IMG/VR virus record: IMGVR_UViG_2718218396_000006
Length of the DNA stretch: 48,511 bases
DNA from: a virus
Lineage: Duplodnaviria > Heunggongvirae > Uroviricota > Caudoviricetes
Direction: 5' to 3' (one strand)
Positions 18,001-21,000 of this stretch are shown here, one piece after another. How positions within the stretch are numbered: the stretch's first letter is position 1; every line of letters begins with the position of its first letter. The position numbers were made by a program.

Positions 18001-21000
18001 TTTAACGCGCAGTGCCATGGTGGCAGTGCTGCAGATGTGCCGTGGATTTGTGGTGACACGACGTATTACTGGAAAAATACATACGCTACCCAGTACGACA
18101 CCGTGTACGGCGGGTATAAAAACAGGGAGAGTGAGGGCGTTTATTTTGTGCCCTTCATGACAGACGGTAACGGCGTCAATACCGCCACTAACGCGCCGGC
18201 AGAAGATCCGGATATTCCGGCATCAGGATATTACGGTGCGGCATCGAGAACGAATGGAAACCAGGTATCATCAAACCGCCCGACACATTTCAGTTCATGG
18301 GCGCGCAGGAGCATTATTCCGGATCGTCTGGCAACCGCTATTCTGAACGCAGCCGGGCGCACCTCAGCCTTCATCAGTGGTAAGGCACCGGAAATCAAAC
18401 CCTCGCCCGGCGGCAACACGCCATCGGGTCCGTCTGCAGATACGTCCGTTCGCACAATCTCCCTGCTGCCGGCAGCCGGAGAGGCTGCTGCGCAGGGCTG
18501 GAGCATTAAGGATGGCGGAATTCAGTTGTCAGATGGTGTATTTAAGATCACCAGGCAGAGCAATAAAACCTGGTCCCTGACGCATCCGGTGGATGACGCA
18601 ATTACCCTGCTGACACAGGGCGGCAGACTGACCTGTAAGTTCCGCCTGTCAGGCGCACTGACCAACAATCAGTTCGGGCTGGGGATTTATCTGTATACGG
18701 ACGCTCCCGTTCCTGATGGTGTGGCGATGACGGGTACCGGTAATCCGTTCCTGATGTCGTACTTCACTCAGACCACTGACGGCAGAGTGAATCTGATGCA
18801 TCACAGGAAAGCCGGAAACACGAAGCTGGGGGAGTTCGGCGATTACGGTAACGACTGGCAGACGCTGGAGCTGGTGTTCACCGCCGGCAGTGCCACGGTT
18901 ACTCCGAAACTGAATGGAGTGGCTGGCCCGGCATTCCAGGTTATAAAAGACAGTCTGACACTGGGACTGAATGCGCTGACGCTGACGGATGTTACAAAAA
19001 ATGCAGCGTATGGCGTTGAGATAGAAAGTCTGATGCTGGAGATAAATGCACCGGCAGCATAATAAAAAAAGCCAGCGACTGACCTGAAAAAGAAGACGCT
19101 GGCTAAAAGGCCTTATATGTTTGTAGAGACTTATTTTTCACAGACAGCAATGATGCCTGTCAATATATTATCAATATGCGGATTGTTTCAGTTACAGATG
19201 CTTTATTAAGGAAAAAAACAGCCAGCACTGACTTTCGGTGGAGAGGTGCTGGCTCAAAAGGATAGATGTACTTCACATGTTGCTTCTATATGGCAGTACA
19301 TTTTCTGACAGACAGTGACGGATGTTGTCAAGATATTGTGTCATTTATAACCTGAATCAGGGGGTGGCCGGAATGTTATCTGGCATTTTTAGCAGAGCCT
19401 GAATGCCATAATCACGGCTCCCGGCGTTGGCCGTCAGTGGGTGACACTGGCGGCTTTTTTGTTTTTCTTTACTTTCATTTTCTGTCGGCGGTGACGGAGA
19501 CATACATCAGATGGAAAAAATCACAACAGGTGTGTCATACACCACGTCAGCGGTGGGGACGGGATACTGGTTACTGCAGCTGCTGGACAAAGTCTCTCCG
19601 TCCCAGTGGGTGGCGATAGGCGTGCTGGGGAGTCTGCTGTTTGGGCTGCTGACATATCTGACGAACCTGTATTTCAAGATTAAAGAAGACCGGCGTAAGG
19701 CGGCGCGGGGAGAGTAAAGTGATGAAGAAAAAATACGAACTGGTTGTTAAAGGGATAAATAATTACCCGGATAAGATTACTGTTACTGTGGCACCGGAAA
19801 TTGGTGGGTATCCGTCACTGTTGTTGCCAGATGTGGCGATTAGTCTTGACCGTACTGAAGGTGCCACGCTGGAGTTTTACGAAGCTGAGGCGAAAAAGCA
19901 GGCGAAGCAGTTTTTCATGGATGTTGCTGCCGGGTTATGTGAAGGGGATGGTCCGTTACCGGAAAAGCGTCCCGTAATTTTAGAGGCGCAGGATGTGTTG
20001 ATAACCTACAGAGGAAAACTACCGGGAATAATTACGGGTTCTCTGAAGACTCCACCGCTGGCCTGAAGACTTAACATATCCAGGGATTTGAAATCGATAA
20101 ACCCTGATAAATATCCATGAACGCAAAAATCAGATACGGCCTGTCGGCTGCCGTTCTGGCGCTGATTGGTGCAGGGGCGTCTGCGCCTGAAATCCTCGAC
20201 CAGTTTCTGGATGAAAAGGAAGGTAACCACACCACAGCATACCGTGATGGTGCGGGTATCTGGACCATCTGCCGTGGAGCCACCCGGGGGGATGGTAAGC
20301 CTGTTATTCCTGGCATGAAGCTGTCGAAGGAAAAATGCGACCGGGTTAACGCCATTGAGCGTGATAAGGCGCTGGCATGGGTGGAGAAAAACATCAGAGT
20401 GCCGCTGACCGAACCCCAGAAAGCGGGGATCGCGTCATTCTGTCCGTACAACATTGGCCCCGGTAAGTGTTTCCCGTCGACGTTTTACAGACGGATTAAT
20501 GCAGGAGATCGAAAAGGTGCCTGCGAAGCGATTCGCTGGTGGATTAAGGACGGTGGCAGGGACTGCCGTATTCGCTCAAATAACTGTTACGGTCAGGTAT
20601 CCCGTCGTGACCAGGAGAGCGCGCTGGCGTGCTGGGGAATCGACAGATAAGCAGAATATTTTGCTGAAAAATGAGGTTTGCTTACATGGACGGATAACAC
20701 GAAATCCTGCAAATTGGCAAAATGTAAGTGAATAAAGTCAAAACAGTTGTTTAACACTCAGGCACCGTAATGATGCCTTTGTCATTTCTGCGCATCTCAC
20801 GCGCATCTCACAACACAGAACCTTTCAGGATGACCCTTGAGGATACCGGTTTGGCTGTCGGTGCCTTTCTGTGGGCTGGATTCCTGTGAGACAAGGTTCA
20901 TCACTAAAAGGAAATAACCGATGAATATGATGGCCGTGCCGTTTCACGGCAACTCTCTTTATGTAGTTAACCATAATGGCGAACCATACGTTCCCATGAA

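What the first reader, a model, noticed from the sequence alone, without database searches (positions are those of the whole stretch)
19063..19470. Tandem pair of sRNA-like units between nanS-p and the holin gene
Two diverged copies of about 150 bp each have, on the minus strand, a perfect TTGACA hexamer, then about 60-70 nt, then a GC-rich hairpin followed by a T7 run (read as an A-run on the plus strand). That is the anatomy of small leftward-transcribed RNA genes that end at the nanS-p stop codon. A plus-strand terminator (19430-19462) then precedes the holin. The -10 elements are weak, so promoter activity is uncertain.
Basis: seen in the sequence. Interest (0 to 1): 0.55.

Follow-up and report, generated by a model that had tools for sequence, protein, structure and literature searches.

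The report
PasA sRNA and its tandem paralogue
The two repeat units are real small-RNA genes of a lambda-like prophage, read leftward against the phage late genes; both were already described (PasA, and the Hfq-bound RNA EcOnc51/52), so the finding is correct but not new, except that nobody had noted that the second is a diverged tandem copy of the first.

Summary
The 448-nt spacer between the sialate esterase gene nanS-p and the holin gene holds two diverged ~150-bp units. On the minus strand each has a perfect TTGACA, 10 nt, CTGTCTGT, a weak -10, a short body and a hairpin followed by U7. A plus-strand terminator lies in front of the holin.

Unit 2 (19296..19212, minus) is 85/85 identical to PasA. 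PasA is a Hfq-dependent sRNA of EPEC E2348/69, validated by Northern blot and RIL-seq (Pearl Mizrahi 2021). Its published 5' end lies exactly 30 nt after the TTGACA.

Unit 1 (about 19128..19064, minus) is the Hfq-CRAC peak EcOnc51/EcOnc52 of EHEC Sakai (Tree 2014). It is also the 3' end of the "minor 236-nt PasA form". I show, after correcting a +142-nt shift between genome versions, that both EcOnc peaks map to unit 1 and start within 2 nt of its predicted start site.

The small new point is that unit 1 is a diverged tandem paralogue of PasA/PasC, probably with its own promoter. Zhu et al. (2026) state that pasA copies are not tandem duplicates.

Function is presumably trans-acting, Hfq-mediated base pairing, but it has not been shown physiologically.

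The parts
19212..19296 (-). Unit 2 RNA = PasA sRNA (85 nt), from its 5' end at 19296 to the end of the U7 run at 19212
   Evidence: It is 85/85 identical to NC_011601.1 743499..743415. Coordinates and Northern probe come from Pearl Mizrahi 2021 Table S6. The probe matches 19221-19245 exactly.
19297..19331 (-). Putative sigma-70 promoter of PasA. TTGACA lies at 19331..19326, CTGTCTGT at 19315..19308, and the weak -10 at TCAGAA 19308..19303 (or TGn + CAGAAA).
   Evidence: The published 5' end lies 30 nt after the last base of the -35, and PasC has the same distance at its own locus. The region 19300-19350 is nearly invariant in 53 distinct spacers, whereas the transcribed 5' part is hypervariable. 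Promoter activity itself was not tested.
19220..19254 (-). PasA intrinsic terminator hairpin. Its 5' arm holds the published seed GCCAGCACC. G and U7 follow at 19219..19212.
   Evidence: Fold. Seven stem pairs are invariant and one shows a compensatory GC<->AU change between unit types. The seed comes from Pearl Mizrahi Fig. S5 text.
19064..19128 (-). Unit 1 RNA (about 65 nt predicted) = Hfq-CRAC peaks EcOnc51/EcOnc52 = RIL-seq entity pasA.E2348C_0688.IGR. It is a diverged tandem paralogue of PasA/PasC.
   Evidence: EcOnc52 maps to 19129..19052. EcOnc51 maps to 19126..19050 after the +142-nt version shift. The RIL-seq RNA2 fragment 743267-743294 corresponds to 19064-19091. Fold z = -3.8.
19129..19163 (-). 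Putative promoter of unit 1. TTGACA lies at 19163..19158, CTGTCTGT at 19147..19140, and the weak -10 at TGAAAA 19140..19135 (or TGn + GAAAAA). The predicted start is about 19128.
   Evidence: Motif search. Anchored comparison with unit 2 gives -35 6/6 and CTGTCTGT 8/8, while neighbouring segments score 2/10 and 11/44. The segment is unchanged in a plasmid relic that is 8-10% diverged elsewhere. It is retained in three contexts that lack PasA.
19070..19104 (-). Unit 1 terminator hairpin. Its U-run (19069..19064) abuts the nanS-p stop codons. It is also the 3' end of the minor 236-nt PasA read-through RNA.
   Evidence: Folds. The minor end 743264 corresponds to window 19061. Phage 434 annotates a terminator here.
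19429..19465 (+). Plus-strand intrinsic terminator in front of the holin gene
   Evidence: The stem has 11 bp and T6GT5 follows; -21.6 kcal/mol, z = -3.5. It is annotated in phage 434. An analogous terminator is present in E. albertii spacers that lack both units.
17212..19062 (+). Context: nanS-p (SASA-family sialate O-acetylesterase), 616 aa
   Evidence: ORF list and RefSeq annotation of identical loci.
19511..19717 (+). Context: class II holin (pinholin S), 68 aa
   Evidence: ORF list and annotations.

Best explanation
The spacer between nanS-p and the holin gene carries a small cassette of two paralogous sRNA genes in tandem. Both are transcribed leftward, antisense to the phage late operon.

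Anatomy of each gene:
- an AT-rich upstream stretch and a perfect -35 (TTGACA);
- a TGn-preceded weak -10;
- an unstructured 5' body;
- a YUUUUR tract just before the hairpin;
- an intrinsic terminator (hairpin plus U7), which is the standard Hfq-binding module.

The two genes:
- The distal gene (19296..19212) is PasA. This identification is shown.
- The proximal gene (about 19128..19064) is the RNA seen as EcOnc51/52. The match is shown; its own promoter is inferred.

Proposed mode of action:
- Like other morons, the genes are expressed from the repressed prophage.
- The RNAs bind Hfq and pair in trans with host and virulence mRNAs. The published PasA seed is GCCAGCACC, in the 5' arm of the terminator. 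Unit 1 and PasC have GCCAGCGUC at the same position.
- PasA termination is leaky. Read-through stops at the unit 1 terminator and gives the minor 236-nt form.
- The plus-strand terminator at 19429-19465 separately insulates the lysis genes from upstream transcription until Q-modified polymerase reads through.

The regulatory outcome on any target is unknown.
For: Shown:
- PasA is 85/85 identical and the Northern probe matches exactly.
- PasA is Hfq-stabilised. It ranks 12th by number of RIL-seq partners (41), with 4983 chimeric fragments under activating conditions.
- The PasA and PasC 5' ends each lie 30 nt after their own TTGACA.
- Both units fold into a hairpin followed by a U-run.
- EcOnc51 and EcOnc52 have the unit 1 sequence. 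Their 5' edges are at 19126 and 19129, against a predicted start of 19128.
- The unit 1 3' end appears only as RNA2 in RIL-seq chimeras, with 5 partners including escD.

Inferred, in favour of a separate unit 1 promoter:
- Islands at identical spacing are conserved between the units (TTGACA 6/6, CTGTCTGT 8/8) while neighbouring segments are at chance level.
- In Sakai prophage Sp4 an IS629 replaces PasA, yet EcOnc52 is listed there.
- No EcOnc peak is listed for the PasA-2 copy of Sp12.
- The ratio of unit 1 to PasA chimeric fragments is 0.024 under activating conditions and 0.47 under non-activating conditions.
- Unit 1 occurs without PasA at three different junctions, all about 25 nt upstream of its -35.
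- The plasmid relic keeps 19130-19172 unchanged.

Cassette nature:
- Spacers exist with 0, 1 or 2 units.
Against: - No 5'-triphosphate-specific start-site data were found for either RNA.
- Both -10 hexamers are weak, and the consensus promoter scan did not call them.
- Zhu et al. (2026) write that the PasA 5' end arises by cleavage of a longer transcript. This conflicts with Table S6 of the original paper but cannot be dismissed.
- Unit 1 is identical in several Sakai prophages, so CRAC reads are multi-mapping. The Sp4 peak could therefore derive from read-through RNA made at other copies.
- RIL-seq fragment counts depend on partner abundance, so the ratio argument is soft.
- No target regulation by PasA or unit 1 has been demonstrated.
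Confidence: 0.75

Rival explanations
1. Unit 1 is not a gene of its own. It is a decayed copy whose hairpin serves as the back-up terminator for PasA read-through and stops antisense transcription from entering nanS-p. On this view the Hfq signal at unit 1 comes from the 3' end, or a processed 3' fragment, of the 236-nt PasA read-through RNA.
For: - The original authors list the unit 1 region as the minor 236-nt PasA form with the same 5' end.
- The unit 1 -10 is weak.
- Unit 1 chimeras are only 2.4% of PasA chimeras under activating conditions.
- Multi-mapping could explain the Sp4 peak.
Against: - The CRAC peaks stop at 19126 and 19129 rather than extending towards 19212.
- No PasA-2 peak is listed in Sakai.
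- The unit 1 to PasA ratio changes 20-fold between conditions.
- The perfect -35 and CTGTCTGT are kept while neighbouring sequence has decayed to chance level.
- The unit 1 promoter segment is invariant across 53 spacers and in a diverged plasmid relic.
Confidence: 0.25
2. The RNAs act mainly in cis. They are fully complementary to the roughly 400-nt nanS-p 3' UTR and to the late-operon spacer. Pairing, or convergent transcription, would modulate nanS-p expression or uncouple it from the lysis genes.
For: - Plus-strand transcripts cannot terminate before 19429-19465, so they must contain the complement of both sRNAs.
- RIL-seq recovered PasA chimeras with the 3' end of the esterase mRNA, at 743175-743305 = window 18972-19102.
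- A plus-strand RNA from 19291-19309 is present on Hfq.
Against: - 36 of the 41 PasA partners are CDS or 5' UTR segments, and the partners seen include core, LEE and bfp genes such as ftsB, frr and escD.
- The motif shared by the targets, including the esterase site CUGAUGCUGGA at 19030-19040, pairs with the terminator-arm seed, not with the antisense overlap.
- This rival is not exclusive of trans action.
Confidence: 0.15
3. The conserved motifs belong to plus-strand promoters: CAGACA-N17-TATATT at 19141-19169 and CAGACA-N17-GATATT at 19309-19337. These would drive rightward transcripts ending at the 19429-19465 terminator. The minus-strand TTGACA would then be incidental.
For: - The promoter scan called the unit 1 plus-strand site with 9 of 12 matches.
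- The same arrangement can be read in unit 2.
- It would also explain the conservation of CTGTCTGT, as ACAGACAG on the plus strand.
Against: - The experimentally observed abundant RNAs are on the minus strand, with 5' ends at the distance expected from TTGACA.
- The plus-strand -35 hexamers are only 4/6 matches.
- No plus-strand sRNA is reported here. The plus-strand RIL-seq entity behaves as a target, with an RNA2 fraction of 0-0.03.
Confidence: 0.07
4. The units are remnants of a duplicated terminator with no promoter activity.
For: Both -10 elements are weak.
Against: PasA is an abundant, discrete 85-nt minus-strand RNA by Northern blot and RNA-seq in a strain with the identical sequence. 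The unit 1 RNA is crosslinked to Hfq in two independent studies.
Confidence: 0.03

Closest known systems
PasA (pathogenicity-associated sRNA A) of EPEC E2348/69, prophage PP2 (Pearl Mizrahi et al. 2021, Sci Adv, PMC8550237; Zhu, Shabalina & Storz 2026, bioRxiv 10.64898/2026.05.13.724894)
   Same: Unit 2 is 85/85 identical. It has the same position (esterase > PasA < holin), the same strand, the same terminator and the same seed. The whole 481-nt spacer differs at 2 positions.
   Different: Nothing in the sequence differs. The host prophage context upstream does differ: this window has a TerB-like gene and two tRNAs.
EcOnc51 / EcOnc52, orphan Hfq-CRAC peaks of EHEC O157:H7 Sakai prophages Sp12 and Sp4 (Tree et al. 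2014, Mol Cell, PMC4104026, Table S2)
   Same: Unit 1 has the same sequence apart from a 2-nt loop deletion and one extra C before the U-run. It is on the same strand and in the same position, abutting the esterase stop codon.
   Different: These peaks were never tested by Northern blot and carry no functional annotation. Pearl Mizrahi et al. call them homologues of PasA, but by my mapping both correspond to unit 1 and not to PasA proper.
PasC of EPEC E2348/69, prophage PP5
   Same: It has the same promoter (TTGACA-N10-CTGTCTGT) and a 5' body like PasA. Its terminator arm (AGCCAGCGUC) and its position abutting the esterase stop are like unit 1.
   Different: PasC loci hold a single unit whereas this window has two. 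PasC looks like a one-unit version or a recombinant of the two-unit array.
AgvB / AsxR anti-sRNAs of Stx and related prophages (Rfam RF02702, RF02703)
   Same: They are short, Hfq-bound prophage sRNAs transcribed against the late operon downstream of PR'. They have a variable 5' part and a conserved 3' part. PasA shows the same pattern of variation.
   Different: They lie upstream of nanS-p, between the moron CDS and nanS-p, not downstream of it. They have no sequence or model similarity: neither family hits this spacer at E <= 10. Sponge activity has not been shown for PasA or unit 1.
Tandem paralogous sRNA pairs such as OmrA/OmrB and PrrF1/PrrF2
   Same: Two adjacent paralogous sRNA genes on the same strand share a conserved terminator region and differ elsewhere. 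Read-through from the first gives a longer RNA, which recalls PrrH (from my own knowledge).
   Different: Divergence here is much greater: only islands are conserved. The proximal copy has not been shown to be independently transcribed. Zhu et al. explicitly contrast PasA with these tandem pairs.

Membership tests
PasA sRNA | Sequence matches PasA of E2348/69 (NC_011601.1 743499..743415, minus strand) | tested here: met
   85/85 identical. The Northern probe GCCAGCACTGACTTTCGGTGGAGAG matches 19221-19245 with 0 mismatches.
PasA sRNA | Located between the sialic acid esterase gene and the holin/lysozyme genes, antisense to both (> < >) | tested here: met
   ORFs and annotations, with directionality from Table S6.
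PasA sRNA | 3' stem-loop followed by poly-U (intrinsic terminator / Hfq site) | tested here: met
   Hairpin at 19254..19220 plus G and U7. The stem is supported across variants.
PasA sRNA | Discrete ~85-nt transcript whose stability depends on Hfq | not testable with these tools
   Published for the identical sequence in E2348/69. No expression data exist for the source of this window.
PasA/PasC family (unit 1 as a member) | Alignable with PasA/PasC beyond chance | tested here: met
   77% identity over 133 columns; score 71 against shuffles of 29.5 +/- 5.7. Shared islands are TTGACA-N10-CTGTCTGT, CCUUUU and AGCCAGC...GCUGGCU.
PasA/PasC family (unit 1 as a member) | Detected by the blastn criteria used to define the family (word size 28, >75% query coverage; Zhu et al. 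2026) | tested here: not met
   The longest exact stretch shared by the two units is far below 28 nt. This explains why the tandem copy was not counted: the closest pasA pair is reported as 22 kb apart.
PasA/PasC family (unit 1 as a member) | Independent transcript with its own promoter | tested here: inconclusive
   In favour: motif conservation, CRAC peak edges, presence without PasA, and the condition-dependent ratio. Against: a weak -10 and no start-site data.
EcOnc51/52 (unit 1) | Sequence under the published Hfq-CRAC peak coordinates | tested here: met
   After establishing a shift of 0 at 1.18 Mb and +142 nt from 1.27 to 2.68 Mb between NC_002695.1 and NC_002695.2, both peaks give the unit 1 sequence.
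AgvB/AsxR anti-sRNAs | Match to Rfam RF02702 / RF02703 | tested here: not met
   There is no hit at E <= 10 in 18950-19560. As a positive control, AsxR was found in the Sakai Sp5 locus at 88 bits.
Rho-independent terminator (plus strand, before the holin) | GC-rich hairpin followed by a T-run on the transcribed strand | tested here: met
   Stem at 19429-19455 with 11 bp (7 GC), followed by TTTTTTGTTTTT.

The most novel reading that the evidence does not exclude
Unit 1 (EcOnc51/52) is an independently transcribed third member of the PasA/PasC family, of about 65 nt. It would have its own sigma-70 promoter and a different seed variant (GCCAGCGUC). The common two-unit locus would then be a tandem sRNA pair of the OmrA/B or PrrF1/2 type, with a PrrH-like 236-nt read-through. 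This contradicts the published statement that pasA copies are never tandem. PasC would be the one-unit or recombinant form of the same cassette.
Probability: 0.6. Interest if true: 0.3.

Novelty: already known. Interest (0 to 1): 0.22.

Why it matters
PasA is among the most connected accessory-genome sRNAs on Hfq in EPEC. Its partners include LEE and bfp virulence genes. The same locus sits in Stx1 phages, in many EHEC and EPEC prophages, and even in the classical phage 434.

Recognising the locus correctly prevents it from being reported as new.

The modest added value has three parts:
- EcOnc51/52 are assigned to the proximal unit rather than to PasA.
- The locus is shown to be a diverged tandem pair.
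- Variation is shown to concentrate in the transcribed 5' part of PasA while its promoter and terminator are fixed.

These points bear on how phage-borne sRNAs diversify. They also bear on the design of deletion mutants, because deleting "pasA" alone leaves unit 1 in place.

Tried and rejected
- Rfam 15 gave nothing for this spacer, at gathering thresholds or at E <= 10, so no curated family covers it.
- The consensus promoter scan did not detect the minus-strand promoters because their -10 hexamers fall below its threshold. It did flag a plus-strand site and an alternative minus-strand site, CTGAAA-N18-TATATT at 19191..19162. The latter would start about 27 nt upstream of the CRAC peak edge, and I consider it less likely.
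- My first mapping put EcOnc51 on the PasA-2 3' half at 19192-19268. This was wrong. Tree et al. used NC_002695.1, which is offset by 142 nt from NC_002695.2 at that position, and I corrected it.
- Searching paper texts for the hairpin sequences found only an unrelated zebrafish paper.
- The protein-guided search of species-representative genomes returned only three loci. These were useful only for showing spacers without units.
- Covariation analysis beyond the terminator stem is uninformative. Unit 1 is almost invariant, and the PasA 5' part has no consensus structure.
- Whole-RNA fold energies of PasA and of the 236-nt form are not exceptional, at z = -1.3 and -1.0.
- A small-protein reading was rejected. 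The only ORFs across the units, 30 aa on the plus strand and 38 aa with a GTG start on the minus strand, span promoter and terminator elements. PasA contains only AUG-UGA.
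Full report
**What is in the sequence.** The window is a lambda-like prophage of the EHEC/EPEC type.
- DicF, sok, two tRNAs and an STnc100-type RNA are called by Rfam.
- A 616-aa SASA-family sialate esterase (nanS-p) occupies 17212-19062.
- The class II holin starts at 19511 and a lysozyme follows.

The 448-nt spacer between esterase and holin contains two units with a period of 150 nt.
- Short direct-repeat families lie exactly 150 nt apart.
- A gapped alignment of the units gives 77% identity over 133 columns. The score is 71, against 29.5 +/- 5.7 for shuffles.
- The composite motif TTGACA-N10-CTGTCTGT occurs exactly twice in 48.5 kb, against 0.01 expected. Both copies are on the minus strand, at 19163..19140 and 19331..19308.
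- Downstream of each motif on the minus strand is a hairpin followed by a U-run. Unit 1 has its stem at 19104..19070, with U-run 19069..19064 touching the double TAA stop of nanS-p. Unit 2 has its stem at 19254..19220, followed by G and U7.
- On the plus strand the same hairpins lack a U tail. Rightward transcripts can therefore end only at the strong terminator at 19429-19465.
- The curated record of phage 434 carries the same spacer at 99.4% identity. It annotates two minus-strand terminators and one plus-strand terminator at these places, and no RNA genes.

**Identification of unit 2.** The spacer differs at only 2 of 481 positions from the spacer between E2348C_0688 (esterase) and E2348C_0689 (holin) in prophage PP2 of EPEC E2348/69.
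- Pearl Mizrahi et al. (2021, PMC8550237, Table S6) place the sRNA PasA there. It is on the minus strand, from 743499 to 743415 (85 nt, major form) or to 743264 (236 nt, minor form).
- With the offset of 724203, PasA is window 19296..19212 and is 85/85 identical.
- The published Northern probe matches 19221-19245 exactly.
- PasA was validated by Northern blot and is Hfq-stabilised. It had 41 RIL-seq partners and 4983 chimeric fragments under virulence-activating conditions.
- Its published 5' end lies exactly 30 nt after the last base of the TTGACA. The same holds for PasC at its own locus. This puts the -35 hexamer where a sigma-70 promoter requires it.

**Identification of unit 1.** The minor PasA end (743264) corresponds to window 19061, the foot of the unit 1 terminator.
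- The RIL-seq entity "pasA.E2348C_0688.IGR" has chimeric fragments at 743267-743294, which is window 19064-19091.
- That entity is always the second RNA in chimeras, has a U-tract of 7 and has five partners, including escD.
- Table S6 notes "homologues in EHEC (EcOnc51/EcOnc52)".

I located these Hfq-CRAC peaks from Tree et al. (2014, PMC4104026, Table S2).
- EcOnc52 (1181998-1182075, minus strand, prophage Sp4) begins at the esterase stop codon. It lies in a spacer where IS629 has replaced everything beyond about 19188, so only unit 1 is present there.
- For EcOnc51 (prophage Sp12) my first mapping was wrong, because Tree et al. used NC_002695.1.
- Using their Northern probes and the Rfam AsxR hit as landmarks, the offset to NC_002695.2 is 0 at 1.18 Mb. 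It is +142 nt at 1.27, 2.17 and 2.68 Mb.
- After correction, EcOnc51 has the same sequence as EcOnc52. Both are unit 1, spanning window 19126..19050 and 19129..19052.
- Neither peak is PasA proper, and no peak is listed for the PasA-2 copy of Sp12.

**Is unit 1 an independent gene?** This step is inferred, not shown. Six observations favour it.
- When the two units are anchored at the -35, the hexamer is 6/6 identical and CTGTCTGT is 8/8. The first ten spacer bases are 2/10, the 44 nt upstream are 11/44 and the early transcribed region is 6/24. Only functional islands at fixed spacing have survived.
- The predicted start is 30 nt after the -35, at 19128. It coincides with the 5' edges of both CRAC peaks, 19126 and 19129.
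- Unit 1 occurs without an upstream PasA in three different sequence contexts. All the junctions lie about 25 nt upstream of its -35.
- A relic on EHEC virulence plasmids, 8-10% diverged, has no change in 19130-19172, although it has several changes in the transcribed part and the terminator.
- The ratio of unit 1 to PasA chimeric fragments is 119/4983 under activating conditions and 54/116 under non-activating conditions. A constant read-through fraction would not give this.
- Sakai lists unit 1 peaks but no PasA-2 peak.

Three points weigh against it.
- The -10 elements are weak and no 5'-triphosphate mapping was found.
- CRAC reads from identical copies are multi-mapping.
- RIL-seq counts depend on the abundance of the partners.

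I put the probability of independent transcription at about 0.6.

**Family relationships and variation.** Scanning IMG/VR with a degenerate motif gave 120 loci. Four unit types were recovered.
- PasA.
- PasA-2, with the same promoter and terminator but a different 5' body.
- PasC, a single unit abutting the esterase stop. It has a PasA-like promoter and body and a unit 1-like terminator arm.
- Unit 1.

Other observations on variation:
- Mosaics exist: a PasA body with a PasC terminator, and a unit 1 body with a PasC loop.
- Across 53 distinct two-unit spacers, nearly all variable positions fall in 19257-19299. This is the transcribed 5' part of PasA, starting at its 5' end. The promoter (19300-19350), both terminators and the whole of unit 1 are almost invariant.
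- The only consensus structure is the terminator stem, with seven invariant pairs and one compensatory GC<->AU change between unit types.
- Spacers in E. albertii and in another Escherichia species lack both units and keep only a plus-strand terminator before the holin.
- The units therefore behave as an insertable cassette present in 0, 1 or 2 copies.
- Zhu, Shabalina and Storz (2026) recognised the common origin of PasA and PasC and the esterase-PasA-holin synteny. They also state that pasA copies are never tandem, with the closest pair 22 kb apart. Their blastn settings (word size 28, >75% coverage) could not detect a copy as diverged as unit 1.

**How it most likely works.** Each unit has the anatomy of a moron-type sRNA gene expressed from the repressed prophage: its own promoter, a short unstructured body, a U-rich tract, and a terminator hairpin with a U tail that binds Hfq.
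- The published PasA seed, GCCAGCACC, lies in the 5' arm of the terminator. It matches a CUGNUGCUGG-type motif in the targets. One such site is in the esterase mRNA itself, at window 19030-19040.
- Unit 1 and PasC carry GCCAGCGUC at that position, so they may have overlapping but distinct targets.
- PasA termination is leaky, and the unit 1 terminator catches the read-through to give the 236-nt form.
- Because plus-strand transcripts run through to 19465, the esterase 3' UTR and the late transcript are fully complementary to both sRNAs. A cis-antisense role is possible but is not required by the data.
- An overlapping plus-strand promoter-like arrangement, CAGACA-N17-TATATT or GATATT, could also account for the conservation of CTGTCTGT. 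The abundant RNAs actually observed are on the minus strand.
- No regulatory outcome on any target has been published in the literature I could search.

**Verdict.**
- The feature is already known as PasA (unit 2) and as EcOnc51/52, or the "minor PasA form" (unit 1).
- There is no curated Rfam family for it.
- The increment here is the assignment of both EcOnc peaks to unit 1, the recognition of unit 1 as a diverged tandem paralogue that probably has its own promoter, and the map of where variation is tolerated.
- Interest is low to modest.

Noticed in passing
window 16903-17075 (+): An STnc100-family RNA (Rfam, 104.7 bits) lies just upstream of nanS-p. This is the position of PasD2/EcOnc05/EcOnc13 in related prophages. 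The PasD Northern probe has no match within 3 mismatches, so this is an STnc100-type variant rather than PasD1/2.
   Followed up: partly
window 4193-4244 (-), 11413-11587 (+), 15881-15953 (+), 16057-16130 (+): Rfam calls DicF, a sok antitoxin RNA (implying a hok/sok module) and two tRNA genes elsewhere in the prophage.
   Followed up: no
L129 (phage 434, OL657226.1) 2601-3080: The classical laboratory phage 434 carries the same esterase-holin spacer at 99.4% identity. It therefore encodes PasA and unit 1. Its record annotates only three terminators there.
   Followed up: partly
window 19255-19299: The transcribed 5' part of PasA is the only hypervariable block of the spacer, with at least four alleles. 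Recombinant units also occur that combine the body of one type with the terminator or loop of another.
   Followed up: partly
L006 and L007 (Escherichia sp. MOD1-EC7003, E. albertii NBRC 107761), downstream of position 2097: These esterase-holin spacers are only about 140 nt long. They have no sRNA unit and a different plus-strand terminator before the holin, so the units are an optional cassette.
   Followed up: partly
L005 (plasmid NZ_CP027444.1) 3001-3175; about 100 plasmid places in E. coli genomes: EHEC virulence-type plasmids of about 90 kb carry a relic made of the esterase 3' end plus unit 1 alone (about 90-92% identity), flanked by IS elements. The unit 1 promoter segment is unchanged in it.
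   Followed up: partly
window 19141-19169 (+) and 19309-19337 (+): Plus-strand promoter-like sites (CAGACA-N17-TATATT and CAGACA-N17-GATATT) overlap the minus-strand promoters of both units, giving a possible face-to-face arrangement.
   Followed up: no
window 19291-19309 (+): Published RIL-seq data list a plus-strand RNA fragment here (pasA.E2348C_0689.IGR) that forms chimeras with PasB, an sRNA from another prophage. It has 798 S-chimera fragments in the non-activating condition, and it is opposite the PasA 5' end.
   Followed up: no
NC_002695 (E. coli O157:H7 Sakai): The coordinates in Tree et al. 2014 Table S2 refer to NC_002695.1. Relative to NC_002695.2 they are unshifted at 1.18 Mb and shifted by +142 nt at 1.27, 2.17 and 2.68 Mb. 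This can misplace EcOnc features if ignored.
   Followed up: yes
window 19180-19188: Three unrelated rearrangement junctions, including the IS629 insertion of Sakai Sp4, fall within a few nucleotides of each other just upstream of the unit 1 promoter. This could be an insertion hot spot or the result of selection to keep the promoter.
   Followed up: partly
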